Shown here: piece after piece, positions 28,034 through 49,017 of the stretch
Position numbering within the stretch: the stretch's first letter is position 1
Layout: every line of letters begins with the position of its first letter
DNA from: Escherichia phage ukendt
Length of the DNA stretch: 64,000 nucleotides
Sequence record: NC_052661.1
Strand: one strand, 5' to 3'
Made by a program: the position numbers and the translations under genes
The notes under the pieces: model-generated
Told to the model about the DNA's origin: nothing
Databases searched by the model: none
The model's input: only the letters and a program-made list of their open reading frames with translations

Positions 28034-28506
28034 TGGCAGATTTAACTACGATCAAAGTTTCTGATCTTACACAAACAACCTCTGTATCTGATACAGATTT
28101 CTTTGTAACAGATCAGGCTGGAATAACAAAGAAGACTTCTTTGAAAGTGCTGTTGAGTGGTGCAGGGGTAACTAGAAACCGTTTAAATGCACGGGGAACA
28201 GTAACTAGCACCTTGGCATTAGATATTAGTTCAGCAGAATATTTTTCGGCAACCTTATCTTCTGCAACGTGCACAATTAGTTTTACTAATATTCCAGTAG
28301 CAACGAATGCAGTTTTAAACTTTACTTTATCTTTGCGTCAAGGAAGTGGCGCAAATAAAGTCGTATGGCCTTCTTCTGTAAAATGGAGTTTTGGTCGTTC
28401 CCCAGTTTTGAGTTATCGTCAAGGTGCAACAGACACTTTTGAATTTATCAGTTATGATAATGGTGCAACTTGGACAGGTAGCTTAGTTTTAGCAGGAGTT
28501 ATTTAA
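28033..28506 (+). CDS. hypothetical baseplate/tail protein
   Basis: 157-aa Ser/Thr-rich ORF; start overlaps upstream stop. Confidence 0.3.
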   Translation: MADLTTIKVSDLTQTTSVSDTDFFVTDQAGITKKTSLKVLLSGAGVTRNRLNARGTVTSTLALDISSAEYFSATLSSATCTISFTNIPVATNAVLNFTLSLRQGSGANKVVWPSSVKWSFGRSPVLSYRQGATDTFEFISYDNGATWTGSLVLAGVI

Positions 28507-31382
28507 TGTCAAGAGTTAAGCACAATATTGACAACACGTTTCAGTTGATTGAAGGGTTGGTTCAGTTTTTGGAAAGAAATACTGGGCTTACCATAGATCC
28601 TACGGTTCAGCATTACATTATCAACCCACAAAACGTATTGGCGAACAACAGACACTTTATTAACTGGACAGCGCAGGAAGGGCAACCAAACGGTGACGCT
28701 ACTACCGAAGGTCAATCTGTGCTTATCACTGGTTTTGCTTATGCATATTTGGCTACAGGGGATAAAAAATATCTTGAATCTGCCGAGAAGTATTGGCAAG
28801 CCTATATAGATCACTTCTTCGGGGGCCAACCTATTCCTGATCCTCCGGCTAAGTATCGTCCCAACTGGATCATCAATGGTAAAGAACCACGTTTAGCACA
28901 TTACCCTCTCACAGATGATGGGTATCCTACGCACGGTGGGTTCAAAGGTAGCATGATGACTTGGATTAACGGAAGGACTGTTATTCCTAAAGGTGCACCG
29001 CATTGGGGGGAATACTTAGATAAAGCTTGGTTTGCTTTCAATGGCAATCTTGGTTGGAACTCCGTTAACGCAACAGTTTATGCAACTAATCCAGATGGTT
29101 CAACCAACTGGAAAGAATATGGAGATCAGTGGGACGTTGAATGGATTATAGATCGTCTAGGACGTAAAGTTGATTGGGATGGTAACATTTTATCTACAGG
29201 TCACAGCTTCGCAGAATATGGAACAGTGCAACTTAAAAATGCTTCTGTGAACGGTGATTATAAATTCAACTACGCTACATGCAACCCTGTAGAACACGGT
29301 GGATATCTGCTTAAGCGTAATGAGATGTGGCATAACCGTCCTGTAAACGTTCCGGTAGAGTTAGGTTATCAAGATAATGCTTCCGATGCTGAAACGTGGT
29401 GGTGTGATGCAAACTACTTGATGTATCAGATCACAGGAGAGAGAAAATACTGGCTTTGCTGGCAATCTTCTTTATTGTTGTGTCAAGACTACTCAAACAT
29501 CGATATGTTTGATAAATTCTTCCGTAGATCTACGACAGCAATAATTCCTTTTACAGATGGTATCTCTTATGATTACTCATACCCATCTACAGCAATACCT
29601 AAATATTCTCGTGACGAATTAGGATACACAGTAATTCGCCAAGATGTTGCAGCACAAACAACTCTAGAACAACAGGCAGTTTGGTTCAGAGTGGATCAGA
29701 ATTCAAAACTGCGTATTGAGTTTCAAGGTGTAGATGATGCAGGGGAAGGTGTTCTTTTCCGTCCAGAGTTAGAATTAAGCAAGACTAAGAGTGAAACAGA
29801 CACAGTGACATATCGTTGTGGCTTACCTCTTGGTGCAGCTAATATGACTAAGATGGATATACCTTTATCTAGTTTTATGCGCACTGAACCTCCTGGAGGT
29901 GGTGTATATATTATTGCTGAACCTAGAATAATTGTTGACTGGGGAAGCAATACTGTGGTACAATATAAATATGCAACTGGTATTGCTGGGACAAATAGTG
30001 ATCAGATAGTTTCTGCTAATATGGATTCAGATGGTGGTTTTACTATTGGATTTTGGTTAACACCAACTAAAACAGCTAATTTAAAATCTATTACGTATCG
30101 TTCATATGCAGATGATTTTAACATCACTATTACGGATTCCGCAGGTTGGAGATGGTGGGCCATGTTAGAAAAAACAAATTCTGCATGGGTTACTAAAGCT
30201 TTAAGTCCTGCTGATTTCAAATTAAGCACTTGGCAACCTAATCACAATGACACAGAGACAAAACCTTCGTCAATAAACCTGACTACTGTTGATCAGATCA
30301 ACATTGCATTGGATTCTGAACCTGCAAATGGCTTGACAGGGGCAATCGACTTTTATTGCGTTAACGATATCCCATCTTTGTATTCTTCAGCCGCTGGCGA
30401 TGATTACACAATGTATTTCAGGGTTACAGTTTCATCTGAAAATCCTTATACAGCAAAACTTGGAGATTGTACAATACTGGACTACAAACTTGACAGTTTG
30501 AATTATACTCCAGGAATCATTCCATTTTCCAATATTAGTGATCCTAACACAGCATTATATGACGGTTGGCGTGGTATTCCTTACCCAGGTTATCAATACC
30601 CATCCTTATATTGTTTTAAAGGGAGAGATATTGACTGGGTTCGTATGAACAACAGTATAGACTTTTTATATGATTCCCAAATGTGGTTTTATAATAAGTT
30701 TGCCCCTGTGATGCCTGGGCCAATGGCACAAGCTTATGTTTGGGATCGTTGGGATGCTCATAAATACGGAAACAAGAATGAGTTCACAATGTATCATTGG
30801 AACGATAAAGCTTGGGATGGTTATGAAGCACGAGCATTCTTCTGTGCGTGTCATACAGTATACGAACTGAAGCAACGAGGAGCAGAAGTTCCTGAAAAAC
30901 TTTTAACAGTTTGTAAAAACTGGATCAATTATCTGAAGTGGTTCCAAGATAACAACGAAGGAAGAACACCAACAATATTTTATCCCAACGGAGAAGTGGC
31001 TGCGCCTGTAGATGACTTTACAAGTCACATGTCTGCGCTCTTTATGGCGGGATGTGCTATAATGGGGATGGCTGGATATGATTCAGAAATTCCTAACATT
31101 AAAATAGTAGCAGATCGCTGTTTTGAACTTATTCAGGAAAATTATATTGTTCTTGGTCCTAATCACGTTATGAATGGTTGTTGGAGTGCTGCTCCTAGAC
31201 CAGACAGTGATAACGGAGTCTTCTTTGGCTTCCACGCCGGAGAGTTGTTACGTGGTTTTGGGTTGTATGCCTTATACAAAAAACTTAATCCCCAAAATGC
31301 ATTACCTGTTTTGGATTCGAGCAATATTCCTGCACTTACTGTTTTGACAATGGCAAACATTAGTGTGGACGTTACCGAGTAA
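28506..31382 (+). CDS. large tail-associated protein with helical, Trp/Tyr-rich enzyme-like domains (candidate polysaccharide depolymerase)
   Basis: 958 aa; Trp/Tyr-rich segments (e.g. FAYAYLATGDKKYLESAEKYW, WDGYEARAFFCACHTVYEL) resembling alpha/alpha-barrel glycosidases or lyases; in the fibre/spike block. Confidence 0.4.
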   Translation: MSRVKHNIDNTFQLIEGLVQFLERNTGLTIDPTVQHYIINPQNVLANNRHFINWTAQEGQPNGDATTEGQSVLITGFAYAYLATGDKKYLESAEKYWQAYIDHFFGGQPIPDPPAKYRPNWIINGKEPRLAHYPLTDDGYPTHGGFKGSMMTWINGRTVIPKGAPHWGEYLDKAWFAFNGNLGWNSVNATVYATNPDGSTNWKEYGDQWDVEWIIDRLGRKVDWDGNILSTGHSFAEYGTVQLKNASVNGDYKFNYATCNPVEHGGYLLKRNEMWHNRPVNVPVELGYQDNASDAETWWCDANYLMYQITGERKYWLCWQSSLLLCQDYSNIDMFDKFFRRSTTAIIPFTDGISYDYSYPSTAIPKYSRDELGYTVIRQDVAAQTTLEQQAVWFRVDQNSKLRIEFQGVDDAGEGVLFRPELELSKTKSETDTVTYRCGLPLGAANMTKMDIPLSSFMRTEPPGGGVYIIAEPRIIVDWGSNTVVQYKYATGIAGTNSDQIVSANMDSDGGFTIGFWLTPTKTANLKSITYRSYADDFNITITDSAGWRWWAMLEKTNSAWVTKALSPADFKLSTWQPNHNDTETKPSSINLTTVDQINIALDSEPANGLTGAIDFYCVNDIPSLYSSAAGDDYTMYFRVTVSSENPYTAKLGDCTILDYKLDSLNYTPGIIPFSNISDPNTALYDGWRGIPYPGYQYPSLYCFKGRDIDWVRMNNSIDFLYDSQMWFYNKFAPVMPGPMAQAYVWDRWDAHKYGNKNEFTMYHWNDKAWDGYEARAFFCACHTVYELKQRGAEVPEKLLTVCKNWINYLKWFQDNNEGRTPTIFYPNGEVAAPVDDFTSHMSALFMAGCAIMGMAGYDSEIPNIKIVADRCFELIQENYIVLGPNHVMNGCWSAAPRPDSDNGVFFGFHAGELLRGFGLYALYKKLNPQNALPVLDSSNIPALTVLTMANISVDVTE

Positions 31383-31390
31383 GGGGTAAA

Positions 31391-33544
31391 ATGAAACAAG
31401 CTATATTTACTGTCACGCGAGACAAGAGAGTAAATGCGAGTTCATTTAACTACACGACTGTTGACGGAACAGCAGTCGCTGGTAGAGATTATATTGCAAA
31501 ATCGGGAACACTTGTGTTCCCTGATGATGCTGATTCTGCTACCATTGTGGTTGAAGTATTTGAACGACCAAAGAACTCAATAGATCTTAACTTCTCCCTC
31601 CAAGTTTCAGGGATTAGTCAAAATAATATGATGGTTGAAACAATCATCAATTGTATTATAACTACTATCCAAGAAAATACCACTCCAATAACTTGGACTA
31701 CAAAAGACGTTAAAATGTTCTCTCCTATGTATTGGACAATAGATTCTCAAGCAACGGAAAGTTGTTCTATTGTATCTCATGGAGACTCTTTTACTGCAAG
31801 ATTTGTAAACAGAACAACAGCAGGTTTGGCAGGGGTTATCTGGAGCACAGTTGACAAATATGACCATAAAGGTGTTGGGTATTTACCCCACACAGATTTA
31901 AGTTCAGAGAAACTTTGGTTTAAAATGGAAATTAGTCAAAACATGCCAGGTTTTAAAGAAGAACCTTTGGTGCCGACTTTGACTGTAACTCTCCTGGATA
32001 AAAGTGTTCATTATGTCAGTTTAGGATTCTACGCTTCAGATATTTCAGAAGATGGTAAAACAGCTACAATCAAGTTAGATTTTGGTAATATCTTTTCTGG
32101 CCCTAATAATGATATTCCTTTGGATATGAGTGCTGTAGATAATATTTTCTTCTCTTTGATTACAGCAAGGTATGAAGAAATAGAAGAGATTGTACCTATT
32201 GCCAGTCTAGAGGCTTGGTTTACTTTCACTCTTCTTGAACCTACTTCTGGTTACAGTATGATGAAAGTCAGCAACCTTGTCCAGCCTGAACATGATATTC
32301 GCATGTGCACATCTTATGATGATATGTATAACCTGACTCCAGAGAGAGTTATTTATAATACATATGCACTAGGTTATCGTGGAATGATTAACCATTATAA
32401 CGGAATGTCTCACTATTATGAGTTCTCATGGAACGGAACATCTTGGGCTTTAAATAGATCTGTTTTCCTGAATCCGGCTACAGAAGCTTGGCTTAACAGT
32501 TTCCATTCTATAGCTAATGAAAATGGCTACACAATAATGAACTCTTTGAGTTTTGAGTTGATGAGCACAGTTTGTCCTGTTGAATGGGTCCAGCATGATT
32601 GGAACGATGCTCTTGCAGCAACAGGGTATAAGCCTCCTAGTTACGTGTTGTCTCCAACTATTGACGAAGGCATGGAATATTTGCAAAATGTTATTAACAA
32701 AATAGCATCTATTTCTCAAGCTAATAACATTCCAGTCGTCATTCAAATTGGTGAACCTTGGTGGTGGTATAATACAGCAAGTAAAATGCCTTGTATATAT
32801 GATTACACTACCAAACTGGCATTCAATACAGAAACAGGCTTATTTGCACAAGATGCAGGAACAATAGATAATTATAAAACAGGAACGCCATTTGACGAAT
32901 ACTATGCATTTCTGTCTCGTAAACTAGGGTTAAGAGTTACAAAGTTTGCAACAGACACCAGAGCAACTTATCCTGGAGCTAAAGTAACATTGCTTCCGTT
33001 CTTACCATCAATTATCGGCAACGGTTTGATGGAGAAAGTTAACTTTCCGTCTGATTACTACATTCCTGAAGCTTTTGATTTTTATTGTTCAGAATGTTAC
33101 GACTGGCTTCTGGAAGGTAAAATGATGAAAGCATTCGATGCAATTACCATACCACATGAAAAATTAGGTTTTGAATATTCTGATATTCACTATCTTTCGG
33201 GTTTTGTTCCAGATGCTACTCTTGCACCTTTGTATGGCTTCGATCCTGAATCAAACTACCGCACGTATCTTTGGAAAATGATTATAGGTAATATAGTGTT
33301 GAACGCCAATAAGTTTGACGGACTTACACAATATATATGGGCCTATCCTCAAATAATGCATGATTCTATCACGGTAGTTAATTCTCAATCCCAAGTTTTC
33401 TATATGGGTAACGTGCCTTTGAACGTCTATTTACAGGATATCACTCTTAAACAGGCAAATGTTGAGATTGCCACCATAAGTGGAATTACATTAGCCACTA
33501 AATCTGGAGAAGATTTAGTAACAACACAAAAATTTTATATATAG
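31391..33544 (+). CDS. tail fibre/spike protein
   Basis: 717-aa ORF co-linear with neighbouring spike genes; no catalytic motif recognised. Confidence 0.4.
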   Translation: MKQAIFTVTRDKRVNASSFNYTTVDGTAVAGRDYIAKSGTLVFPDDADSATIVVEVFERPKNSIDLNFSLQVSGISQNNMMVETIINCIITTIQENTTPITWTTKDVKMFSPMYWTIDSQATESCSIVSHGDSFTARFVNRTTAGLAGVIWSTVDKYDHKGVGYLPHTDLSSEKLWFKMEISQNMPGFKEEPLVPTLTVTLLDKSVHYVSLGFYASDISEDGKTATIKLDFGNIFSGPNNDIPLDMSAVDNIFFSLITARYEEIEEIVPIASLEAWFTFTLLEPTSGYSMMKVSNLVQPEHDIRMCTSYDDMYNLTPERVIYNTYALGYRGMINHYNGMSHYYEFSWNGTSWALNRSVFLNPATEAWLNSFHSIANENGYTIMNSLSFELMSTVCPVEWVQHDWNDALAATGYKPPSYVLSPTIDEGMEYLQNVINKIASISQANNIPVVIQIGEPWWWYNTASKMPCIYDYTTKLAFNTETGLFAQDAGTIDNYKTGTPFDEYYAFLSRKLGLRVTKFATDTRATYPGAKVTLLPFLPSIIGNGLMEKVNFPSDYYIPEAFDFYCSECYDWLLEGKMMKAFDAITIPHEKLGFEYSDIHYLSGFVPDATLAPLYGFDPESNYRTYLWKMIIGNIVLNANKFDGLTQYIWAYPQIMHDSITVVNSQSQVFYMGNVPLNVYLQDITLKQANVEIATISGITLATKSGEDLVTTQKFYI

Positions 33545-33552
33545 GAGTAAAA

Positions 33553-35967: not shown

Positions 35968-35989
35968 ATAATTGATATTATGCTTCATG

Positions 35990-36022
35990 GTAATTGTGGG
36001 TGAATCACTCACAATTACTTTT
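35990..36022 (+). terminator. long near-perfect inverted repeat after the tailspike gene, followed by TTTT
   Basis: GTAATTGTGGGTGA / TCACTCACAATTAC arms (one mismatch), then TTTTAG. Confidence 0.5.
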
Positions 36023-38582: not shown

Positions 38583-38584
38583 AA

Positions 38585-40270: not shown

Positions 40271-40810
40271 ATGAATATTGTTTACGATGGTTTTGAACTA
40301 TATACTCCAGAACCTAATGAAGAGACGCTCTTTTTAATTGGTTTAGGGGTAGGATTTTTAAGAGATTCCTCTGGCAGGGATTGGTATGATTTATCGAAAG
40401 AGTTAGATGCTAAGTATCCTGATGCATATTTTGTTAGTTTAAATACTGATAACTTAGTCTTAGGTGTAGGGGAAGATGCAGTAGGATTATTCCCCCACAA
40501 TATGCGTGTTGTTGTTACAGATAACGTTCCAAAAGGTATGGCTGAATACCCAAGACAATGGAGATATAATGGAACAACTTTTGAAAAACATAACACTTGG
40601 ACGCAAGAAGATGTGGATACTACACTAGAGACAGAATTGACGTGGGCTGGAAACCAAATAGGTGCTTTGACAGATTTGCAAGAGTTACAAGGTTTGTCAG
40701 AGGAACAAGAAAAATGGTTAAAAGCTGTTAAGTTATATCGAGCATCTTTAGTTTTGTTAGATCTGAAAGACTTGAACAACATTCAATGGCCCGATAGACC
40801 TACTCAGTAA
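40271..40810 (+). CDS. tail fibre assembly chaperone
   Basis: 179 aa; C-terminal LYRASLVLLDLKDLNNIQWPDRP resembles the conserved end of fibre-assembly proteins; sits right after a fibre gene. Confidence 0.6.
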   Translation: MNIVYDGFELYTPEPNEETLFLIGLGVGFLRDSSGRDWYDLSKELDAKYPDAYFVSLNTDNLVLGVGEDAVGLFPHNMRVVVTDNVPKGMAEYPRQWRYNGTTFEKHNTWTQEDVDTTLETELTWAGNQIGALTDLQELQGLSEEQEKWLKAVKLYRASLVLLDLKDLNNIQWPDRPTQ

Positions 40811-40820: not shown

Positions 40821-41156
40821 ATGGAATTTCAAGAAGCATGGGGACTTGCCAAGGATGCAATCATCCCTTTAATCGGAGTCATCTGGTTCTTTTTCAAACA
40901 AAAAATGGATAAATTCGGCTCTGATCTTGAGGAAATGGAGGAGAAAAGTCGAGAGCTAGAGAAGAAGTTGGTCTTTGTTGAATCAACTTATGCAACTAAA
41001 GCCGAACTTACCCAGATGCTAAATCAAATTAACTCTACATTAATGGCAAATAATAACACTCTTGAGCAAAAAATTGAAAAGATTATGGACCTCAAGAATG
41101 CGACTATTCAAATGATGCTAGATGACATAGTTAAACGTACACAGAATAAGGGGTAA
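40821..41156 (+). CDS. small membrane-anchored coiled-coil protein
   Basis: 111 aa; N-terminal hydrophobic segment AIIPLIGVIWFFF then a charged coiled-coil. Confidence 0.3.
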   Translation: MEFQEAWGLAKDAIIPLIGVIWFFFKQKMDKFGSDLEEMEEKSRELEKKLVFVESTYATKAELTQMLNQINSTLMANNNTLEQKIEKIMDLKNATIQMMLDDIVKRTQNKG

Positions 41157-41159
41157 TTA

Positions 41160-44100
41160 ATGGCAACATTCCCAACATATCCAGCAACGTCTCTTGAACA
41201 GGGCGTAGATCTGGTTATTTTCTCGTCTAACCAACTCCATGATGTTATTAATGGAAGTGCTACAGAGAGTATTGAAACAGAATCAGGGTTGATACCAACC
41301 CTGAGAAAAGCCCTTGTTGACAACTTTTTCTTTAAAAGCCCATTAGATTGGGCGCAAGGCACAAACGAAACAGTTTTTAACCAACTTCGTTATTTCCAGA
41401 ATGGAGTATTGAGCGGTTATTACTACGCCCCTAACGCTACATTGGTTAACCCAATCCCTATGCAAGGGACTCCAGTAGGAGATAACAACTGGGTATTGTG
41501 GGGACTGAAAACAGAACAATTGGCAACAGAAGTCACCCCTTGGGTATATTCTGGTGCAACTGGTTATGAAACAGTAATCAGTCCTCCCTACATCTTTGAT
41601 AGTGCTATTGTTACGATCAATGGTGTTATTCAGGTTCTGGGAGAAGCTTTCCGCATAGAAGATAGTAAGATCATCTTATCTGAACCTTTGGGACACGATC
41701 CTGCGACAGGACTGCCAAACAAGCTTTTTGCTTATATTGGTAAAATCGTAGCTTCAGCAGATACAGATCCTAACCTAGAGAATCGTCTTGTTAGTTTAGA
41801 AACAAAAACGGAAGAACTAACAGAAAGCATGGATAAAGTCCCTCTGCAAACTATTGCTCGTAAATATGGTTTGTTAGATGATGAGGTAGCTTATGCTACA
41901 GCGGGTCAATCATTAACAGGGATTAAAGCTCTGTATGATCCAGTAGCACAATCTTCCTACACATTGCCTCCTAACATTACAGGGACGTTAACATCTTTGT
42001 CTGTTTCTGGAGTAATGACTTATTCTGGTGGTTCTGTAGATCTTTCTGCACTAGCTGTTGAACGTGGACAATTTGTTCATTTACCTACAAGCTTTGGTAA
42101 TAACGTAACCTTGACAGCTAAAAACCAGACGATTGGACGTGGTGCTGGTCGATATCGTTGGGCTGGAAGTTTACCAAAAAGTATTTTGGCCTCCGATACA
42201 TTGGAGACAAGCGGTGGATTAGGTCCAAATGCATGGGTTCTGACCAATACAGAAGGACTGTTAACCCCTCGTGGTGGAACATACAACGATTTATTCGATG
42301 TTGTCTACTTGTCAGAATTTGCTAACAACACAACAACATATACCACACCAGAAGCAGCTTTCCAAGCGGCACTGTTAGCAGCAAAAGCTTCGAAAAGCAA
42401 GATTCTCGATGCTTACGGTTGCGATATGACTTTCACGACAAGCTCTTTTGATATTCAAGGTATCACTTTGCGTGGGGGTGTGTTCCGTGGTCAACGCGAC
42501 TATCGTGTGCAAAATGCTACAGTAGAAGGCACAACTTTCCGTAACTCTCGTGTTATGTATTGGGGTGGTGCTGTGCGCATGTTCGATTGTTTGTGGGACG
42601 GTGCTCCTCGCGCAGGTCAAGTTGGTAGCTTGGTATTCCAAGGCAACCCAATATCAGGTACTTTTGAAATTGATAATTGTACTTTTAAAAACGGGTTGTA
42701 TGGCATCCTTCAACAAGGAACAGGGGAACCAGTAACACGCGGTGTCTTCCGTAACCTTACCTTCATGGACATGCAAGGTGATGCAATAGAACTGAACGTC
42801 ATCAATAAACATTATGATGATGGTTGTGTGATTGAGAATATTTACCTGTCTAATATCGATGGGACTAACGCTCCTATTCCTCTGTCCAACTGGGGTATCG
42901 GTATTGGTGTAGCTGGTAAAGGACCATATGGTTACGGAATTCCTGATGATCAATATTGCAAGAATATTACAATTCGTAACGTTTTTGCAAAACGTTGTCG
43001 TCAGATTGTCCACGTAGAAGTTGGTCGTAATATTTCTATCGAAAACATTCATGGCGATCCAGATCAAACTGTATCTGTTGGAACAGGTTTGGCAACTGGC
43101 GCAGTTGTAATGTATGGAAGTAAAGATTTTACGATTGATGGTGTTTATGGAGAGCCTAAAACAGACGGTAGCACACTTGCAAGTAATATCCGTATGATTT
43201 ATTTGGAGTGGGGAACTAACGCAGTTCTGGACGAAGAGGGTAATCCGGTAGTTCCGGCACAGGGTAGACCTTCAAACCCATGCTTTAACTATTCTGTTCG
43301 TAACATTCACACCAAAACTGGGCGGGTTTTTGCAGGAGTTTCCGCTGGGCCAGGTTATGAAAACAGAGTCAGCTTTGAGAATATCCGTTGTGCTGCGTTG
43401 CAGTTGTTCGGTGTAGCTTCTTGGCTTTCAATGTCTAACATCACCTGTAATATCTTTGATTGTGTTGGTCAACCTGAATCTGGTCCAGGGACATTTTATG
43501 ATGGATTCTTCCGTAGAGAAAAATCTGTTCTTGAGATGGTTAACGTAAACTGTTACCCAGATGGCAAGACGATGGTTACTGGTCGTCCACAGTGGAGCCG
43601 TTGCCGTTACTCGGATATTCATCGTGTCAACTGTAATGTTGAAGCTAATATGTATACCAATATCGCAGGTGGTATTGGAGCTATTGTAGGGACAACTGGC
43701 AAAGTTTATTACTTAGAGCCTAACCCTAGCCGAAACATTGATGGGATGCATTTCCCAACAGGGAAGGAGTTTGACAAAGGGGATATGATAGTCAAAGCGG
43801 ATAATACGTTCTTCCTTGTAACAACAAGCGGGGCATACATTCCAGATATCCCAGCTTTCGGTATTCGAGCTACACAAGCAGGAGATACCTTCCTGACACA
43901 GAACTTGACTCCTAATGGGACAGCAACAAACGCTTCTTGGTTGTATCACTATCCTCTGTCAGCAGGAACACGTATCCGTATTCCTGGTGCTGGTGTAGGT
44001 GGAGCAGATTTGGACACAGTTATTACTCGTGCACCTTATCAAGATAATGATACGTGGACTAACCCAGTTAAAATAGACATTGCAGATCCAATTGTAACGC

Positions 44101-44213
44101 CTACGAGTGCTGGAGTTAGAATCAAAACCATACCTAACGATTCTAGTAATGTTTCTGTAGGTAATACTGCGGTTATTCGCCCAACACCAGTGGTAGATGT
44201 GCCAACAACCTAA
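41160..44213 (+). CDS. tailspike with parallel beta-helix domain
   Basis: 1017 aa; repetitive beta-helix-like segments (NCTFKNGLYGIL, NITIRNVFAKRC, NISIENIHGD); shares N-proximal modules with two other spike genes. Confidence 0.6.
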   Translation: MATFPTYPATSLEQGVDLVIFSSNQLHDVINGSATESIETESGLIPTLRKALVDNFFFKSPLDWAQGTNETVFNQLRYFQNGVLSGYYYAPNATLVNPIPMQGTPVGDNNWVLWGLKTEQLATEVTPWVYSGATGYETVISPPYIFDSAIVTINGVIQVLGEAFRIEDSKIILSEPLGHDPATGLPNKLFAYIGKIVASADTDPNLENRLVSLETKTEELTESMDKVPLQTIARKYGLLDDEVAYATAGQSLTGIKALYDPVAQSSYTLPPNITGTLTSLSVSGVMTYSGGSVDLSALAVERGQFVHLPTSFGNNVTLTAKNQTIGRGAGRYRWAGSLPKSILASDTLETSGGLGPNAWVLTNTEGLLTPRGGTYNDLFDVVYLSEFANNTTTYTTPEAAFQAALLAAKASKSKILDAYGCDMTFTTSSFDIQGITLRGGVFRGQRDYRVQNATVEGTTFRNSRVMYWGGAVRMFDCLWDGAPRAGQVGSLVFQGNPISGTFEIDNCTFKNGLYGILQQGTGEPVTRGVFRNLTFMDMQGDAIELNVINKHYDDGCVIENIYLSNIDGTNAPIPLSNWGIGIGVAGKGPYGYGIPDDQYCKNITIRNVFAKRCRQIVHVEVGRNISIENIHGDPDQTVSVGTGLATGAVVMYGSKDFTIDGVYGEPKTDGSTLASNIRMIYLEWGTNAVLDEEGNPVVPAQGRPSNPCFNYSVRNIHTKTGRVFAGVSAGPGYENRVSFENIRCAALQLFGVASWLSMSNITCNIFDCVGQPESGPGTFYDGFFRREKSVLEMVNVNCYPDGKTMVTGRPQWSRCRYSDIHRVNCNVEANMYTNIAGGIGAIVGTTGKVYYLEPNPSRNIDGMHFPTGKEFDKGDMIVKADNTFFLVTTSGAYIPDIPAFGIRATQAGDTFLTQNLTPNGTATNASWLYHYPLSAGTRIRIPGAGVGGADLDTVITRAPYQDNDTWTNPVKIDIADPIVTPTSAGVRIKTIPNDSSNVSVGNTAVIRPTPVVDVPTT

Positions 44214-44222
44214 TGGAAATAG

Positions 44223-44242
44223 AGAGGGGGAAATCCCCCTCT
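44223..44242 (+). terminator. hairpin after the spike gene (putative terminator)
   Basis: AGAGGGGG-AAAT-CCCCCTCT; pyrimidine-rich but weak U-tract. Confidence 0.4.
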
Positions 44243-44278: not shown

Positions 44279-46303
44279 ATGAATTTAACAAGACCTAATA
44301 GTGCGATAGCCGATCTGGTAGAAGCTACTTATCGAAAACGTCGCAGTTTTGAGGCAGGTTTTACATTACGTAATTCCCGTGAAGTTTTGCTGTTAGCAGC
44401 AGAAGGGAATTATTACCAATGGAAAGGAACTTTTCCTAAAGTAGTTCCAGCAAACTCTACGCCAGCCACCACAGGTGGTATTTCTTCCCTTGCATGGCAA
44501 AGTGTTGGGACCGCTGATGATATAGCAATTATCAATGCCAAGTTTACGGCAGTGCAACAACAGATCGATGATTTGTCAGAAGCAATACCTGAAGCTGGTA
44601 AATCGGCTTATCAGATCGCACTTGATAATGGTTTTGTTGGAACAGAAGCCCAGTGGCTTGCTTCTTTGAAAGGGGATACTGGTGCTCAACTTAATATTAA
44701 GGGATCATTAGCAAGCACTAGTGAACTACCATCTACAGGTAACATTGCAGGAGATGGTTATATCGTAGGTGATGTGATTTACGCTTGGGATGGTTCTGTT
44801 TGGAAACTTATTTCTTCTCTTGGGCCAGAAGGGAAATCAGCTTATGAGGTATGGTTGGCAGATGGTAATACAGGATCTGTTTATGATTTTCTTACCTCTA
44901 TAAAAGGTGATAAAGGTGATGTTGGTCCTACAGGGCCACAGGGAGCACCTGGTGTTAACGCCAACGGTTTTGATTATCGTGGGGATTTGCCTTCTACAAG
45001 TAACTTACCACAACCTAACTCTGAAAACGTAAGCCAAGCGTACTCTATCGATGGTAATCTTTATGTCTCTAATGGGACAGCTTGGGTCAACATGGGTAAT
45101 ATTGTTGGTCCTCAAGGCCCACAAGGTGAGGCAGGTAAAGACGGTCTAGATGGAACAGATGGAGACGAAGGGAAATCTGCATATCAAAGTTGGCTGGACG
45201 CTGGTAATGAAGGGACAGAAGTAGATTTTGTTGCTTCCTTAAAAGGAGAGAAGGGTGACAAAGGAGATAAGGGAGATCCTGGTCCACAAGGTGAACAGGG
45301 TGTTCAAGGTATCCAAGGTCCGGTTGGTGCAGGTCTTTCTGTAAATGGTGAATTGTCAGATGTTTCAGAATTACCTTCTGTAGCGGAGGTTGGTGATGCC
45401 TACATTGTAAAAAATGACCTTTACGTGTGGATCGACGACAATCAAACGTGGCTCAATGTAGGTAGTTTGGGTGGTAGATCTATTACAGCTAAAGGTCATG
45501 TTGCAAACGGCGAAGCTCTTCCTGTTTATAATAACTATGGTGATGCTTACTTAACTGAAGACACTAGTAATCTTTACATCTATACCTACGATCAAGACAC
45601 CAATTCCGCATCTTTTGTTGACATGGGAAGTATTAAAGGCGACAAAGGTGAAAAAGGGGATAAAGGAGATAAGGGTGATCCTGGAACAAACGGAACCAAC
45701 GGTACTGATGGGACCAACGGTAAGGACGGCGCACAGTGGTTTGTAGCAACAACTAATCCAGTCGCAGGAGACGGTGTTATCAATGATTACGCCTTCAATA
45801 CTACCACTGGAGCAGTGTTTAAGAAAACAGATTCTTCTACGTGGACGCTTATAGGAACTCTTCCTAGTATACCAGAAGCCCCTCAAGACGGCTTGACGTA
45901 TGGTAGGTCTGATGGAAACTGGATCGAAATATCAGGATCAGATCCTACGGAAGCTATAACACCAACTAGAGTTACAGCAGGTTTCATGGAACTTGAAACA
46001 ACTACTGCCAACTCTGGAGCATCTTGGACTCCTTCTGGAACTTCCAATATGTATGTTGTTACAGTAACTGATGCTCTGACAGTTGGAGCATGGCCTGGTG
46101 TCACTGGCTCTACAAAACCTAAAGCGTTTTCAGCAATGATTTATTTGATTCAAGATACAACGGGACACACGGTTACACTAGATGCGTCTTATGGAGCACT
46201 AAATGATACAGAAATAGCAACTACTGCTAACGCAGTAACAATTTTGCAATTAACGTATCCTGGTGTGGGTGATATCGTGGACATGGTTGTTGTAACACGA
46301 TAG
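44279..46303 (+). CDS. tail fibre with collagen-like Gly-X-Y tracts and repeated fibre modules
   Basis: 674 aa; Gly-X-Y runs at residues ~209-229, 277-299, 322-352, 452-483; three copies of a ~29-aa module GKSAYQ..L..G...E..W/F L.S.KGD. Confidence 0.6.
   Translation: MNLTRPNSAIADLVEATYRKRRSFEAGFTLRNSREVLLLAAEGNYYQWKGTFPKVVPANSTPATTGGISSLAWQSVGTADDIAIINAKFTAVQQQIDDLSEAIPEAGKSAYQIALDNGFVGTEAQWLASLKGDTGAQLNIKGSLASTSELPSTGNIAGDGYIVGDVIYAWDGSVWKLISSLGPEGKSAYEVWLADGNTGSVYDFLTSIKGDKGDVGPTGPQGAPGVNANGFDYRGDLPSTSNLPQPNSENVSQAYSIDGNLYVSNGTAWVNMGNIVGPQGPQGEAGKDGLDGTDGDEGKSAYQSWLDAGNEGTEVDFVASLKGEKGDKGDKGDPGPQGEQGVQGIQGPVGAGLSVNGELSDVSELPSVAEVGDAYIVKNDLYVWIDDNQTWLNVGSLGGRSITAKGHVANGEALPVYNNYGDAYLTEDTSNLYIYTYDQDTNSASFVDMGSIKGDKGEKGDKGDKGDPGTNGTNGTDGTNGKDGAQWFVATTNPVAGDGVINDYAFNTTTGAVFKKTDSSTWTLIGTLPSIPEAPQDGLTYGRSDGNWIEISGSDPTEAITPTRVTAGFMELETTTANSGASWTPSGTSNMYVVTVTDALTVGAWPGVTGSTKPKAFSAMIYLIQDTTGHTVTLDASYGALNDTEIATTANAVTILQLTYPGVGDIVDMVVVTR
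45242..45334 (+). repeat. collagen-like Gly-X-Y coding repeat
   Basis: Encodes LKGEKGDKGDKGDPGPQGEQGVQGIQGPVGAG. Confidence 0.6.
45632..45727 (+). repeat. collagen-like Gly-X-Y coding repeat
   Basis: Encodes IKGDKGEKGDKGDKGDPGTNGTNGTDGTNGKDG. Confidence 0.6.
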
Positions 46304-46306
46304 TAG

Positions 46307-46331
46307 AAGCCCCGAAAGGGGCTTTCTTTTT
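46307..46331 (+). terminator. rho-independent terminator
   Basis: AAGCCCC-GAAA-GGGGCTT then TCTTTTTA. Confidence 0.7.
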
Positions 46332-46344
46332 ATGGAGGGTTTAA

Positions 46345-49017
46345 ATGTTTCCAATTCCAATATTTACTATTATGACCAGCACTGGTGTCGTTCCTCTGCC
46401 AGCGGGTATTGTTAAAAAAGTAATCACTTTAGATTACCCAGACAATGCTGGTAATTCTAACAGCAGTTTAGCAATTTTGCTTAACGATGGTAGATTGTTT
46501 ACTCAAGGTGCAAACCTTTTTGGTGAGATTGCAGATGGAACTCGTAGTGCACGATTCAATAATTTCCACTTAGCTTCTACTGTAGTAGCGGATGTGTTTA
46601 CCGCAGATCGTTGTTTTGTTATTAAAACTAATAGTGGGGGATGGCAATATTCAGGATTGACAGCAGGGTTGGTAGGATCTATAGCAGCAGGTGGTGCGGA
46701 TGCATGTGTAACTACTTGGACCAGCTTTCCATCTGTAATAACGGGGACTATCTCTTTAGCCAATCTTAAAGAGGTTAAGGGAGGATATAACAACACTCTC
46801 TGGTTAATGAATAGTGGTGTTCTTTATGGATCGGGTCAAAACACAGTAGGCAGTTTAGGTGCAAGTACTACTAACGAAGTTTCTACTCCTCGTCAAATAA
46901 CGAGTGCAGCAGTTGCTTTTGATGCAGGTTACAACCAATGCTCTTATGTCAACAATGTGGGAACCTTGCGTGTTTGTGGAGCCAGCAAAGGTTTAGCAGG
47001 TAATAATAACACAACAAAAGCTTTTGTAAATGCTACGATATCCACTACTGAAACAGTGTATGTCAAAGATTACATCAATACCGTTTCCCAGACAATAGTT
47101 GTAGGAGATACCTCCGGTGGAACTGGTACAACAAACTACCTTTATGTTAGATCTAATACAGAAACAACCTACACTAAGCTGGATACCTTTGCAGCAGGTT
47201 TCTCAACATGGAAGTTTCCACCGAGCCGTCACTCTTTTTTCGTTGGGATTAATAATTCCTTGTGGGCTATCGGTAAGAACTATACGGCAAACTTAGGTCT
47301 GGGGTATGATTCTGCGAGCGGAGATCCACTCCAAGTGGGAAAACCAGTTAAACCTGAAGGAGTGGGTTCCTGGGATATAAACAAGCTCACAAGCGTTCAT
47401 ACGCTGAATATGGATGTTACTAACCAATTAGGTTATCAAGGAACATTTTTCGTTTATAATGGAAGTATGTATTATTCCGGTATTTGGAAAGATGGGAAAG
47501 CGTCATATCTGTTCAATAGCGGTCTAAACTATAATAAATTCACACCAATAGCAAGCTCCGTGATTACGGGTGATGTGCTGGCAACTAGCTTAACTACAGA
47601 TTCTTTAGGAATTTGTATTGTAGGTGGAACTAAACAGTTGACACATTCTGTTAGCCCAGAAGGAGGTAAACTTTTCAATATTAAATACACTTCTTCTGCC
47701 CCTGCAAACATGACAATATCATCTACTGGCTTAATGACTTTCCAAGCAGAAGGTGGTTTTGATGCAGGTATGACAGCCTTAAACGCTGAAGGAACAACTC
47801 TATCAGATATCTCTGGAGGATATGCTTCAACATTGAGCGTTTACACCCCTAGCTTATCTGCGATGGATGTAGGAACAACACAAACAATGGTAGCAGAAAT
47901 AACGCCAACAGGAGCAGCAAGCTTACCTGGTATGGTTGTTGAGTATACAACTACAGATCCTAGTGTTGCTACAGTAGATCCTACAACTGGCGTAATAACT
48001 GGAGTTGGTGATGGTGGTTGTAGAATTGGTTGCACAGCTACGTATCAAGGTGTTGTTACCGCTTCTGATAGTTCTTATTTAACGGTGAACGCTGTTGCGG
48101 GAAAGGAGTTAGCTCCATCTCCGAGTAGTAGTTTAACGGTTCTAAACGGATATTTCAACCACTCGGCAGATGGGGCGATTACGTTCCCAACTTTATCGGG
48201 TACTGTTACACCAGCTAACTTTGTAGTTAAGGTGGATGACGTTGTAGTTCCTTCAAGTAAAGTAATATTTAGAAATAAAGCTTTCTCTACAGTGGATAGT
48301 TATCCAGCAGGAGAATATAGACTGGCTATTGAATTTGCAAGTGCTTCTGTAGTTAATAATGTTGAGGTATCTATGGAAGCAAATCCAGATCTTTTAGAAT
48401 TGTGGGGCGGCAACAGGATTGGTTATTCTACAAGCCCAGCCTCACAGTTCTTAAAAGGTTGTGCTAACTTAAGACGAATAACCTCTGATTGTTTTAGTAA
48501 CACATCTTACACCGGAACGTCTATAAGTGGTATTTTCTCTGGCTGCACAAGTTTGACAGCTATCCCTGAAGGATTATTCAGCGATACTTTATTTCCTTCG
48601 ATGACAACAATGTCAAGCACGTTTGAAGGTTGTACGTCTTTAACATCTATTCCTTCTGATTTATTTAAAAATTTATCAAAAGTTACAAGATACTCTTACA
48701 CCTTTAAAAATTGCACCTCTCTTGCAGAAGTTCCAGCCGGAATGTTTGACAATATTCCAACGAAAGTAACCTCTTTAACAGCTACGTTCCAAGGTTGTTT
48801 AGCACTTACAGATTTTAATAAAATCTTTAATGACAACCCAGGGTTAACGGTTTGTGGTCAACGTGGAGCATTGTCTTCTTTCTTTAGTGGATGCACAAAT
48901 CTTACAGGAACAGGAGTAACATTAACAAGCACATTAGGTGGAGCAGCTAATAGTTACCTATTCAGGTATTGCACAAAACTTTCTGATTATAACAACATTC
49001 CTTCGGGTTATAAATAA
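46345..49017 (+). CDS. multidomain adhesin-like tail protein (RCC1-like repeats, Ig-like segment, BspA-type leucine-rich repeats)
   Basis: 890 aa; N-terminal repeated G-x-N-x-x-G-x-L-G units; central TTTDPSVATVDPTTGVITGVGDGG segment; C-terminal repeats of F.GCTSLT.IP..LF. Confidence 0.5.
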   Translation: MFPIPIFTIMTSTGVVPLPAGIVKKVITLDYPDNAGNSNSSLAILLNDGRLFTQGANLFGEIADGTRSARFNNFHLASTVVADVFTADRCFVIKTNSGGWQYSGLTAGLVGSIAAGGADACVTTWTSFPSVITGTISLANLKEVKGGYNNTLWLMNSGVLYGSGQNTVGSLGASTTNEVSTPRQITSAAVAFDAGYNQCSYVNNVGTLRVCGASKGLAGNNNTTKAFVNATISTTETVYVKDYINTVSQTIVVGDTSGGTGTTNYLYVRSNTETTYTKLDTFAAGFSTWKFPPSRHSFFVGINNSLWAIGKNYTANLGLGYDSASGDPLQVGKPVKPEGVGSWDINKLTSVHTLNMDVTNQLGYQGTFFVYNGSMYYSGIWKDGKASYLFNSGLNYNKFTPIASSVITGDVLATSLTTDSLGICIVGGTKQLTHSVSPEGGKLFNIKYTSSAPANMTISSTGLMTFQAEGGFDAGMTALNAEGTTLSDISGGYASTLSVYTPSLSAMDVGTTQTMVAEITPTGAASLPGMVVEYTTTDPSVATVDPTTGVITGVGDGGCRIGCTATYQGVVTASDSSYLTVNAVAGKELAPSPSSSLTVLNGYFNHSADGAITFPTLSGTVTPANFVVKVDDVVVPSSKVIFRNKAFSTVDSYPAGEYRLAIEFASASVVNNVEVSMEANPDLLELWGGNRIGYSTSPASQFLKGCANLRRITSDCFSNTSYTGTSISGIFSGCTSLTAIPEGLFSDTLFPSMTTMSSTFEGCTSLTSIPSDLFKNLSKVTRYSYTFKNCTSLAEVPAGMFDNIPTKVTSLTATFQGCLALTDFNKIFNDNPGLTVCGQRGALSSFFSGCTNLTGTGVTLTSTLGGAANSYLFRYCTKLSDYNNIPSGYK

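What the first reader, a model, noticed from the sequence alone, without database searches (positions are those of the whole stretch)
28506..49017. Unusually large receptor-binding arsenal: at least seven fibre/spike genes including several depolymerase-like spikes
Within about 20 kb the phage encodes a 958-aa helical enzyme-like protein, a 717-aa fibre, an 804-aa pectate-lyase-type spike, a 343-aa coiled fibre with its chaperone, a 1017-aa beta-helix spike, a 674-aa collagen-like fibre and an 890-aa adhesin-like protein. Several terminators split the block into separately regulated units. This implies a branched, multi-specificity adsorption apparatus.
Basis: partly seen in the sequence, partly recalled or inferred. 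Interest (0 to 1): 0.6.

Follow-up and report, generated by a model that had tools for sequence, protein, structure and literature searches.

The report
Known multi-fibre phage adsorption locus
This block is the tail-fibre and tailspike gene cluster of Escherichia phage ukendt, a Phapecoctavirus, and its many receptor-binding proteins are real but are the already described "Swiss army knife" hallmark of phi92/rV5/phAPEC8-like phages.

Summary
All seven ORFs exist at the stated coordinates and lengths. The window is Escherichia phage ukendt (Phapecoctavirus, Stephanstirmvirinae). The block is gene-for-gene syntenic with phi92 gp140-gp151, the published multivalent adsorption apparatus. Four proteins are true fibres or spikes:
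- the 804-aa beta-helix spike
- the 343-aa short fibre, with its chaperone
- the 1017-aa gp150-like spike
- the 674-aa collagen-like fibre

Two are globular and enzyme-like. The 958-aa protein is modelled as an (alpha/alpha)6 glycosidase-like barrel. The 717-aa protein is N4 gp64/gp65-like and is the ortholog of phi92 gp142, the reported NGR-glycan binder. The 890-aa protein is an RCC1 propeller plus Ig domains plus an LRR-like tip, with no evidence yet that it is in the virion.

Only the 804-aa spike differs from close relatives. Its catalytic module (over 93% identical) also sits behind three other N-terminal anchors on contigs of about 40-72 kb. The 580-nt gap downstream keeps a fragment of an Autographiviridae genome end and an orphan CBA120-TSP1-type N-terminal domain. 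These are footprints of cassette exchange.

Terminator-like hairpins occur only after the last three genes; the other genes are packed 15 nt apart or less. Verdict: a real but ordinary, already known system. The one modestly new lead is that the 958-aa and 717-aa proteins may be the unassigned baseplate arm or fibre II.

The parts
28033..28506 (+). 157-aa fibre-like protein, the ortholog of phi92 gp140.
   Evidence: 85% aa identity to phi92 gp140. It matches phrog_9017, 'tail fiber protein'. Chen 2026 lists gp140 as a fibre candidate.
28506..31382 (+). 958-aa conserved tail protein, the gp141 ortholog: an (alpha/alpha)6 glycosidase-like barrel with CBM-like beta-sandwich insertions. It is probably attached to the baseplate wedge.
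31391..33544 (+). 717-aa protein with Calx-beta, NCTSP_N and TIM-barrel domains, the gp142 ortholog. It is the predicted binder or deacetylase of the NGR surface glycan.
   Evidence: Pfam PF23845 E 6e-79, PF23844 E 4e-16. PDB 9lc0: N4 Gp64 E 8e-30 and N4 gp65 E 1.6e-12. 76% identical to phi92 gp142. The literature names gp142 as the NGR-targeting RBP.
33553..35967 (+). 804-aa beta-helix tailspike at the position of phi92 gp143. This is the variable cassette: a genus-specific anchor (about aa 1-92), the TD2/Tail_spike_N domain (aa 93-150), and an imported catalytic module.
   Evidence: Tail_spike_N E 4e-20 and pectate-lyase-like E 3.6e-7. Only nt 1-452 are shared with relatives. 33910-36221 is 95.2% identical to metagenome contig L009. 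Proteus prophage spikes are 54% identical. It is an exact match to YP_009986894.1 of phage ukendt.
35968..36547 (.). 580-nt non-coding mosaic downstream of the cassette. 36020-36153 resembles the right end and terminal repeat of a Kakivirus (Autographiviridae). 36311-36547 is shared with other Phapecoctavirus genomes and with a Gamaleyavirus intergenic region.
   Evidence: No Rfam match.
36548..36856 (+). 102-aa orphan TD1 domain: the N-terminal docking domain of a CBA120-TSP1-type tailspike with no catalytic part behind it.
   Evidence: PDB 4oj5 residues 1-95, E 8e-45. 45% identical to aa 230-302 of the window's 1017-aa spike. About 80% nt identity to the 5' ends of Kuttervirus and Gamaleyavirus tsp genes. 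Conserved in the genus: a 66-member cluster.
36853..37095 (+). 80-aa small membrane protein, the gp144 ortholog.
   Evidence: 81% identical to phi92 gp144; phrog_1322.
37095..38582 (+). 495-aa baseplate wedge subunit (Baseplate_J), the gp145 ortholog.
   Evidence: Its wedge role in phi92 is described.
38585..39214 (+). 209-aa baseplate wedge subunit (DUF2612), the gp146 ortholog.
39224..40255 (+). 343-aa short tail fibre, the ortholog of phi92 gp147 (fibre III). It probably binds the LPS core.
   Evidence: 73% identical to gp147; phrog_4465. Fibre III was assigned to gp147 by cryo-EM fitting. The LPS-core terminal receptor in relatives is described.
40271..40810 (+). 179-aa tail-fibre assembly chaperone, gp148-like.
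   Evidence: Caudo_TAP E 2.4e-7; phrog_136.
40821..41156 (+). 111-aa protein, the gp149 ortholog. Relatives annotate it as a lipoprotein, but it has no cysteine; it has one hydrophobic helix and a coiled-coil-like remainder.
41160..44213 (+). 1017-aa beta-helix spike: a gp150-type anchor (aa 1-215), an inserted TD1-TD2 module (about aa 226-370), and a colanidase-like catalytic domain.
   Evidence: PDB 6e0v E 2e-79; CBA120 TSP N-termini E 1e-26 to 1e-30. 75% and 33% identical to the two parts of gp150. phi92 gp150 lacks Tail_spike_N.
44221..44242 (+). GC-rich hairpin after the 1017-aa gene, -22.6 kcal/mol, with an interrupted U-tract.
44279..46303 (+). 674-aa collagen-like fibre, the gp151 ortholog, beginning directly with TD2.
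   Evidence: Tail_spike_N E 1.4e-19 and Collagen E 1.2e-12. Four Gly-X-Y runs. 59% identical to gp151.
46306..46325 (+). Canonical intrinsic-terminator-like hairpin with a U-tract after the 674-aa gene.
46345..49017 (+). 890-aa modular adhesin-like protein: an RCC1 beta-propeller, two Big_2 Ig domains, a beta-sandwich, and a variable LRR-like C-terminal third.
   Evidence: Pfam. AF2 model pLDDT 80. Foldseek matches to UVR8/RCC1, E 1e-11. The C-terminal third swaps between alleles. aa 411-584 are 67% identical to phi92 gp152.
49020..49041 (.). Bidirectional terminator-like hairpin at the point where the late + strand genes meet the - strand genes.

Best explanation
The block is the baseplate-periphery and receptor-binding gene cluster of Escherichia phage ukendt (Phapecoctavirus). 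It is orthologous to the multivalent adsorption apparatus of phage phi92.

Shown by homology:
- The wedge proteins (495 and 209 aa) carry several kinds of appendage.
- The 343-aa fibre with its chaperone is the short 'fibre III', which in relatives mediates the terminal step at the LPS core.
- The 804-aa beta-helix spike sits where phi92 has its endosialidase (the tip of fibre I). It is the exchangeable module that sets O-antigen or capsule specificity.
- The 1017-aa spike is the gp150-type (colanic-acid-degrading type) depolymerase.
- The 674-aa protein is the gp151-type collagen-like fibre.
- The 717-aa protein is the gp142-type, N4 gp65-like TIM-barrel protein. In relatives it targets the conserved NGR exopolysaccharide and lets the phage bypass O-antigen.

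Inferred:
- The 958-aa (alpha/alpha)6 glycosidase-like protein is bolted to the wedge and works together with the 717-aa protein. It would act as the proximal arm of the appendage that carries the 804-aa spike, and possibly as a second glycan-processing activity.
- The spikes dock through their conserved N-terminal modules (TD1/TD2). These same conserved sequences serve as homology arms for swapping catalytic modules between unrelated phages.
- The 890-aa propeller/Ig/LRR protein is an accessory adhesin or decoration protein with an exchangeable binding tip.

The genes are expressed as one tightly packed late array. Hairpins only modulate the last three genes.
For: Identity of the phage: the 804-aa and 102-aa proteins match ukendt proteins exactly, and the block is 95-98% nt identical to many Phapecoctavirus genomes.

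Synteny and identity to phi92 gp140-gp151.

Literature on relatives:
- three co-expressed fibre sets and the 'Swiss army knife' description
- phi92 cryo-EM assignment of wedge gp145/gp146, fibre I gp143 and fibre III gp147
- gp142 as the NGR-targeting RBP, and nfrB/wecB dependence
- rV5 virion mass spectrometry detecting fibre and baseplate proteins

Folds.

Association of the 958-aa protein with the 717-aa protein and with the wedge:
- natural fusion P0223 (gp141-like plus gp142-like, 51% identical to residues 108-675 of the 717-aa protein)
- natural fusion P0207 (P2 gpI plus gp141-like)
- position between gpI and the fibre gene in a P2-like prophage

Cassette exchange:
- only nt 1-452 of the 804-aa gene are shared with relatives
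- 95% nt identity of the rest, plus 254 nt downstream, to a metagenomic spike gene
- the same catalytic module behind four different anchors, with the boundary right after '...SVGDASLR'
- an Autographiviridae genome-end fragment in the gap

Operon packing and hairpins.
Against: No experimental data exist for ukendt itself: no virion proteomics, receptor genetics or enzymology. Chen 2026 could not fit any candidate into the fibre II density and did not consider gp141 or gp142, so the arm assignment is untested. The 958-aa fold is also used by non-hydrolytic proteins (epimerases, cyclases, thioester domains), and I did not check catalytic residues. NGR dependence has been shown for Vequintavirus and Justusliebigvirus, not explicitly for Phapecoctavirus. 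No gp10-like XD docking domain was detected by the sequence searches run here (Pfam, PHROGs, PDB phmmer; no dedicated XD search), so the partner of TD1/TD2 is unknown. The substrates of the 804-aa and 1017-aa spikes are unknown; the latter is only 33% identical to gp150 in the catalytic part.
Confidence: 0.85

Rival explanations
1. There are seven independent fibres or spikes, each with its own receptor specificity. They are organised in separately regulated transcription units and form an exceptionally large arsenal.
For: There are seven large ORFs with tail-related PHROG hits. Three hairpins lie at the 3' end. Four enzyme-like folds are present.
Against: The same set is present in more than 100 related genomes at 95-99% identity and in phi92, so it is not exceptional. 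The 958-aa protein is too conserved across hosts to be a specificity determinant, and it occurs fused to the 717-aa type, which suggests one appendage rather than two. phi92 cryo-EM shows three fibre sets, not seven. The terminator-like count is not above chance, and 12 genes are packed 15 nt apart or less.
Confidence: 0.1
2. An Ackermannviridae-style single branched complex. All proteins bearing TD1/TD2 (804, 1017 and 674 aa, plus the orphan 102-aa TD1) hang on one stalk through XD-type domains, as in CBA120 TSP1-4.
For: The TD1 and TD2 domains are clearly homologous to the CBA120 TSP N-termini. TD1 is known to dock on XD3.
Against: The family and PDB sequence searches run here turned up no XD or gp10-like domain in these proteins, though no dedicated XD search was made. 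The three genes are not tandem; they are separated by wedge and short-fibre genes. The 804-aa and 1017-aa proteins keep phi92-type N-terminal anchors (96% and 75% identical), and phi92 gp143 and gp150 lack TD2 altogether. So attachment does not depend on TD domains in the sister genus.
Confidence: 0.2
3. Part of the set is not adsorption machinery. The 890-aa protein, and possibly the 958-aa protein, would be a capsid or tail decoration protein, a non-virion protein, or a purely structural protein whose enzyme-like fold is vestigial.
For: The 890-aa protein has no trimeric fibre features; Ig domains are typical of decoration proteins, and phi92 has only a 202-aa Ig protein at this position. 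The 958-aa homolog sits next to the tail-tube gene in a siphovirus-type prophage. I did not examine its active site.
Against: The C-terminal third of the 890-aa protein swaps between alleles, as binding modules do. The 958-aa protein has 107 invariant columns, rich in W, D, E, H and N, across 40 diverse homologs, plus CBM-like domains. This fits a conserved glycan site.
Confidence: 0.3

Closest known systems
Multivalent adsorption apparatus of phage phi92 (Justusliebigvirus, gp140-gp151); Schwarzer 2012 (cited from memory and through), Chen 2026 (PMC13450770)
   Same: The gene order is identical. Amino-acid identities are gp140 85%, gp141 83%, gp142 76%, gp144 81%, gp145 80%, gp146 87%, gp147 73%, gp148 47%, gp149 76% and gp151 59%. 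The first 54 residues of the cassette spike are 96% identical to gp143. The catalytic domain of the 1017-aa spike matches the gp150 crystal structure 6e0v.
   Different: The cassette carries a pectate-lyase-type beta-helix instead of the endosialidase. The gp150 ortholog has an inserted TD1-TD2 module of about 240 aa, and its catalytic part is only 33% identical. An orphan TD1 ORF and a 580-nt mosaic gap are present here but absent in phi92. An 890-aa propeller/Ig/LRR protein replaces gp152 (202 aa) and gp153 (295 aa).
Other Phapecoctavirus genomes (tuntematon, phAPEC8, ESCO5/ESCO13, EF1-1, UP17)
   Same: The block is 95-98% nt identical over 80-86% of its length. The proteins are 96.5-100% identical to those of tuntematon, apart from the cassette spike and the 102-aa ORF (91%).
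   Different: The catalytic module of the 804-aa spike and about 340 nt downstream differ. Tuntematon has a 452-aa spike plus two small ORFs there. No phage record in the collection searched carries this allele at the nucleotide level.
Branched tailspike complex of Ackermannviridae (CBA120 TSP1-4) and G7C-type Gamaleyavirus spikes
   Same: The TD1 and TD2 (Pfam Tail_spike_N) N-terminal domains are shared. The 102-aa ORF matches TSP1 residues 1-95 (E 8e-45; most positions identical in the printed alignment). Recombination in the conserved 5' modules serves as the exchange mechanism.
   Different: No XD domains were detected, and the spikes are not encoded in tandem. They are mounted on a phi92-type baseplate through different N-terminal anchors.
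Non-contractile sheath of phage N4 (gp65 major and gp64 minor subunit; PDB 9lc0, 9yf4)
   Same: The 717-aa protein has the NCTSP_N and TIM-barrel domains. Relatives depend on the same NGR/NfrB/WecB pathway as N4.
   Different: It is half the size of gp65 and matches only gp65 residues 348-416 plus the gp64 core. It lacks the gp65 C-terminal domains that bind the plug and NfrA. It sits on a contractile-tail baseplate, not around a podovirus tail.
Six-hairpin (alpha/alpha)6 glycoside hydrolases (GH8, GH76, GH88/GH105)
   Different: Sequence identity is 9-13% and there is no Pfam or CAZy-type sequence match. The barrel is interrupted by about 500 residues of beta domains. Catalytic residues were not verified.

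Membership tests
phi92-type multivalent adsorption locus (Stephanstirmvirinae) | Synteny with phi92 gp140-gp151, with wedge genes embedded between the fibre genes | tested here: met
   The gene orders match one to one. tblastn identities are mostly 59-87% (47% for the chaperone), except for the cassette.
phi92-type multivalent adsorption locus (Stephanstirmvirinae) | A gp142-type N4 gp65-like glycan deacetylase/NGR-binding protein | tested here: met
   PF23845 E 6e-79; 76% identical to gp142. The role is taken from the literature.
phi92-type multivalent adsorption locus (Stephanstirmvirinae) | A hypervariable spike at the gp143 position behind a conserved N-terminus | tested here: met
   nt 1-452 are conserved and the rest is unique among phage records. 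Hundreds of alleles carry other enzymatic C-termini.
phi92-type multivalent adsorption locus (Stephanstirmvirinae) | Several fibre sets co-assembled on each virion | not testable with these tools
   This needs cryo-EM or proteomics of ukendt. It has been shown only for phi92 and by mass spectrometry for rV5.
Ackermannviridae-type branched TSP complex | TD1/TD2 N-terminal domains on the spikes | tested here: met
   Tail_spike_N is present in the 804-, 1017- and 674-aa proteins. TD1 is present in the 1017-aa protein and in the 102-aa ORF.
Ackermannviridae-type branched TSP complex | gp10-like XD2/XD3 domains that link the spikes | tested here: inconclusive
   The Pfam, PHROG and PDB sequence searches of the locus proteins surfaced no XD or gp10-like match. 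No dedicated XD profile or structural search was made of the N-terminal 215 aa of the 1017-aa protein.
Ackermannviridae-type branched TSP complex | A tandem tsp1-4 gene cluster | tested here: not met
   The TD-bearing genes are at 33553, 41160 and 44279, separated by wedge and short-fibre genes.
Beta-helix depolymerase tailspike (804 aa) | A right-handed beta-helix or pectate-lyase-like catalytic domain behind an anchor | tested here: met
   PF12708 30.6 bits, above the cut-off of 27. 25-28% identical to Acinetobacter capsule-specific tailspikes over 70-90% of the module.
Beta-helix depolymerase tailspike (804 aa) | Polysaccharide-degrading activity and trimeric state | not testable with these tools
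An enzyme assay is needed.
N4 non-contractile tail sheath protein (gp65/gp64) | NCTSP_N plus TIM-barrel domains | tested here: met
N4 non-contractile tail sheath protein (gp65/gp64) | The full ten-domain gp65 architecture, including the plug/NfrA-binding D9-D10 | tested here: not met
   Only gp65 residues 348-416 and gp64 residues 114-367 are matched, and the protein is 717 aa against 1382 aa.
Six-hairpin glycoside hydrolases (958 aa) | (alpha/alpha)6 barrel fold | tested here: met
Six-hairpin glycoside hydrolases (958 aa) | Catalytic acid/base residues in place, and sequence membership of a GH family | not tested
   There is no Pfam match. Invariant D and E columns exist, but I did not map them onto an active site.
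Collagen-like phage fibre (674 aa) | Gly-X-Y triplet runs | tested here: met
   Runs of 6, 8, 10 and 11 triplets. Pfam Collagen E 1.2e-12.

The most novel reading that the evidence does not exclude
The 958-aa (alpha/alpha)6 glycosidase-like protein and the 717-aa N4 gp65-like TIM-barrel protein would together form the still unassigned baseplate appendage of phi92-type phages, that is, the L-shaped arm of fibre I and/or 'fibre II'. They would act as a two-enzyme module (deacetylase plus glycosidase, analogous to PgaB-type processing) on the conserved NGR exopolysaccharide. The 958-aa family has no Pfam model and no solved structure. It is spread across P2-like, lambda-like and rV5-like phages of many Proteobacteria, so it would be a widespread, unrecognised class of wedge-mounted phage glycosidase.
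Probability: 0.3. Interest if true: 0.55.

Novelty: already known. Interest (0 to 1): 0.3.

Why it matters
As stated, the finding re-discovers a textbook feature of rV5/phi92/phAPEC8-like phages in a phage that is already in RefSeq with these genes annotated. It adds nothing categorically new. Three by-products may be of practical use.

1. The cassette boundary is precise. The catalytic module starts right after the TD2 motif '...SVGDASLR', and the same module sits behind four different anchors. This is a natural blueprint for engineering host range across myo- and podoviruses.
2. The gap downstream of the spike preserves physical footprints of cross-family transfer: an Autographiviridae genome-end fragment and an orphan TD1 domain.
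3. The 958-aa and 717-aa pair was ignored in the 2026 phi92 cryo-EM study. It is a concrete, testable candidate for the unassigned fibre density.

Tried and rejected
- Promoter scan: 55 sigma-70-like sites against 54.3 +/- 7.8 in shuffles, so it was uninformative.
- Rfam on the 580-nt gap: only a chance miRNA hit at E 0.28. A structured RNA is therefore not supported.
- The phi92 2012 paper (PMC3457257) is not held. Its content is cited only through later papers and from memory.
- The E. coli O177 'proteomics' paper turned out to be in-silico only, with no virion mass spectrometry. A search for phAPEC8 virion mass spectrometry found nothing beyond rV5.
- Foldseek of the 958-aa model against the PDB gave only weak, domain-level matches to CBMs and glycosidases, and no solved phage protein with the same architecture.
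- A metagenome-contig scan for the 804-aa catalytic module found nothing. The viral-contig scan found only one prophage-type relative at 58% identity.
- I considered whether the 102-aa ORF resembles the phi92 chaperone gene. I rejected this: the tblastn hit is in frame with aa 230-302 of the 1017-aa spike ortholog.
- The 'lipoprotein' label for the 111-aa protein is rejected, because it has no cysteine.

Full report
**What is in the sequence**

- a 157-aa gene that overlaps the start of the 958-aa gene (28033-28506)
- a 102-aa and an 80-aa ORF (36548-37095)
- two baseplate wedge genes (37095-39214; Baseplate_J and DUF2612)
- a 179-aa Caudo_TAP chaperone
- a 111-aa ORF

Gene spacing is -4 to 15 nt throughout. 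The exceptions are a 580-nt gap after the 804-aa gene, 65 nt after the 1017-aa gene, and 41 nt after the 674-aa gene.

Terminator-like hairpins on the + strand in intergenic positions occur only after the last three large genes:
- 44221-44242: -22.6 kcal/mol, with an interrupted U-tract
- 46306-46325: canonical
- 49020-49041: bidirectional, at the switch to - strand genes

The overall count of terminator-like sites (19) is not above shuffles (12.9 +/- 4.2), and promoter-like sites are at the chance level. The ORF observation is therefore confirmed. The statement that terminators split the block is true only for its 3' end.

**Which phage it is**

The block is 95-98% identical at the nucleotide level over 80-86% of its length to many Phapecoctavirus genomes, including tuntematon, nepoznato, ECML-183-2 and EF1-1. 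The upstream 25 kb is 98.8% identical to ESCO13. The 804-aa and 102-aa proteins are exact matches to YP_009986894.1 and YP_009986895.1 of Escherichia phage ukendt. The window is therefore a deposited, annotated RefSeq phage of the subfamily Stephanstirmvirinae.

**Comparison with phi92**

The locus is gene-for-gene syntenic with phi92 gp140-gp151.

| Window protein | phi92 ortholog | aa identity |
|---|---|---|
| 157 aa | gp140 | 85% |
| 958 aa | gp141 | 83% (gene length identical, 2877 nt) |
| 717 aa | gp142 | 76% |
| 804 aa | position of gp143 | 96% over the first 54 residues; rest unrelated |
| 80 aa | gp144 | 81% |
| 495 aa | gp145 | 80% |
| 209 aa | gp146 | 87% |
| 343 aa | gp147 | 73% |
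| 179 aa | gp148 | 47% |
| 111 aa | gp149 | 76% |
| 1017 aa | gp150 | 75% over aa 1-215; 33% over the catalytic part |
| 674 aa | gp151 | 59% |

The literature describes this equipment as the hallmark of rV5-, phAPEC8- and phi92-like phages: several co-expressed fibres and spikes, a 'nanosized Swiss army knife'. A 2026 cryo-EM study of phi92 built the wedge from gp145 and gp146. It assigned fibre III to gp147, inferred that the tip of the L-shaped fibre I is gp143, and left fibre II unassigned. rV5 virion mass spectrometry detected its tail fibre and baseplate proteins.

**What each protein is**

- **717 aa.** It carries Calx-beta, NCTSP_N and TIM-barrel_NCTSP domains. It matches the solved N4 sheath subunits Gp64 (E 8e-30) and gp65 (E 1.6e-12). 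N4 gp64/gp65 form the receptor-binding non-contractile sheath. The homologous 'glycan deacetylase' protein of Vequintavirinae and phi92-like phages, exemplified by gp142, is reported to target the NGR exopolysaccharide, and infection depends on nfrB and wecB. It is a globular glycan-binding or glycan-modifying protein, not a fibre.
- **804 aa.** It has Tail_spike_N (aa 93-150) plus a pectate-lyase-like beta-helix.
- **343 aa with the 179-aa chaperone.** This is the gp147/gp148 short-fibre pair.
- **1017 aa.** Its catalytic domain matches the phi92 gp150 crystal structure (6e0v, E 2e-79). Residues 226-370 match the N-termini of CBA120 TSP1-4 (E 1e-26 to 1e-30). phi92 gp150 lacks that module.
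- **674 aa.** It starts with Tail_spike_N and has four Gly-X-Y runs of 6-11 triplets.
- **890 aa.** The model (pLDDT 80) shows an RCC1-type propeller (Foldseek E 1e-11 to UVR8/RCC1), two Big_2 domains, a beta-sandwich and an LRR-like C-terminus. Its first two thirds are conserved, while the last third swaps between alleles. Residues 411-584 correspond to phi92 gp152 (67%). Nothing shows that it is a fibre or that it is in the virion.

In sum there are four true fibres or spikes, two enzyme-like globular tail proteins, and one adhesin-like modular protein.

**How the 958-aa and 717-aa proteins fit in (inference)**

Three observations tie the 958-aa protein to the baseplate wedge and to the 717-aa protein.
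- A natural fusion protein, P0223 (1557 aa), consists of a gp141-like part followed by a gp142-like part that is 51% identical to residues 108-675 of the 717-aa protein.
- Another fusion, P0207 (1097 aa), joins the P2 gpI wedge domain (Tail_P2_I, E 7e-52) to a gp141-like part. It lies directly after gpV, gpW and gpJ in a P2-like element.
- In a P2-like Pseudomonas prophage, the homolog sits between gpI and the tail fibre gene.

The gene order 958-717-804 matches the phi92 description of fibre I as an arm-like scaffold with the spike at its tip. Together these make it plausible that the two proteins are the arm and/or the unassigned fibre II. The 2026 phi92 paper does not mention gp141 or gp142 at all. 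This is the only lead here that goes beyond published knowledge, and it is untested.

**The one variable part: anatomy of the cassette**

- Against 50,697 phage records, only the first 452 nt of the 804-aa gene and the last ~235 nt of the gap have near matches.
- Window 33910-36221 runs from codon ~120, inside Tail_spike_N, to 254 nt past the stop codon. It is 95.2% identical to a metagenomic contig that encodes an 810-aa spike.
- The 90%-identity cluster of this protein has 45 members. Five were read in full and two further alleles were added in the alignment. The same catalytic module (read off the aligned sequences as over 93% identical; not computed) follows four unrelated N-terminal anchors:
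  - the Phapecoctavirus anchor, on contigs of about 149-151 kb
  - a CBA120-TSP1/G7C-type TD1-TD2, on contigs of 63-72 kb
  - two other anchors, on contigs of 40-70 kb
- All alleles converge at the end of TD2 ('...GGVG..AW.SVGDASLR') and diverge immediately after it.
- More distant relatives are Proteus mirabilis and Proteus vulgaris prophage spikes (54%), a prophage next to mlaA/fadL (58%), and Acinetobacter capsule-specific spikes (25-28%).
- Within the gap, 36020-36153 is 88.8% identical to the non-coding right end and short terminal repeat of Providencia phage PS3 (Autographiviridae, Kakivirus), where the last gene is a tail fibre gene. Shorter matches hit the terminal repeats of many Klebsiella Autographiviridae.
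- 36311-36547 is shared at 93-97% with other Phapecoctavirus genomes and with an intergenic region of Gamaleyavirus U1G.
- The 102-aa ORF that follows matches residues 1-95 of CBA120 TSP1 (PDB 4oj5, E 8e-45). This is the TD1 docking domain, here without any catalytic part. It is 45% identical to aa 230-302 of the window's own 1017-aa spike and is conserved in the genus.
- In Ackermannviridae, TD1 docks on XD3 domains, and the conserved 5' modules are thought to be the recombination sites for spike exchange.

The simplest reading is that the conserved TD2 (left) and the TD1-bearing region (right) act as homology arms. On this reading, the present module came, with some flanking DNA, from a podovirus-type donor. 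This is the familiar mechanism of tailspike modularity, shown here with unusually clear footprints.

**Verdict**

However, this is the already described multivalent adsorption locus of a known phage. The count of 'seven fibres/spikes' and the idea of separately regulated units are overstated.

Novelty: already known. Interest: about 0.3, carried by the 958/717 arm hypothesis and by the clean cassette boundaries.

Noticed in passing
window 35968-36547 (esp. 36020-36153): The non-coding gap after the 804-aa spike contains a 134-nt stretch that is 88.8% identical to the right end and short terminal repeat of Providencia phage PS3 (Autographiviridae). It also has 42-nt matches to the terminal repeats of many Klebsiella Autographiviridae. 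This looks like donor flanking DNA carried along with the tailspike module.
   Followed up: yes
window 36548-36856: A 102-aa ORF is an orphan TD1 domain: it matches residues 1-95 of CBA120 TSP1 (PDB 4oj5, E 8e-45) and then stops. It is conserved across Phapecoctavirus, absent in phi92, and overlaps the next gene by 4 nt. It could be a relic, a homology arm for spike exchange, or a cap for a docking site.
   Followed up: partly
P0223, P0207, L012, L013, L011 (homologs of window 28506-31382): The 958-aa family has no Pfam model. It occurs fused to a gp142-like protein, fused to P2 gpI, between gpI and gpH in a P2-like Pseudomonas prophage, and next to the tail-tube gene in a siphovirus-type Enterobacter prophage. 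It is a widespread, uncharacterised tail-associated (alpha/alpha)6 protein.
   Followed up: partly
window 40821-41156: Relatives annotate the 111-aa gp149 ortholog as a 'lipoprotein', but the sequence has no cysteine and so no lipobox. It has one N-terminal hydrophobic helix and a coiled-coil-like remainder.
   Followed up: partly
window 6805-8725: There is a cluster of 10 tRNA genes (Met, Arg, Ser, Asn, Thr, Gly, Gln, Pro, Ile, Met). The tRNA-Asn call is 86 nt long, which is unusual for Asn, and one relative annotates a pseudo-tRNA in the matching 25-kb stretch.
   Followed up: no
hit H1 (MG065650.1): The best nucleotide match is a record named 'Campylobacter phage B15' with host C. jejuni. 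It is 97.7% identical to E. coli Phapecoctavirus genomes, so the host label of that record looks doubtful.
   Followed up: no
window 46345-49017 versus L002 21321-22983: Phapecoctavirus has one 890-aa propeller/Ig/LRR protein where phi92 has two small genes, gp152 (an Ig protein, 67% identical to aa 411-584) and gp153. Alleles of the 890-aa protein swap their C-terminal third, some for DUF285-type repeats.
   Followed up: partly
window 36322-36337 (- strand) and 36501-36524: Inside the + strand gap there is a terminator-like hairpin with a U-tract on the - strand, and a GC-rich hairpin (-13 kcal/mol) with no U-tract on the + strand. Neither is explained.
   Followed up: no
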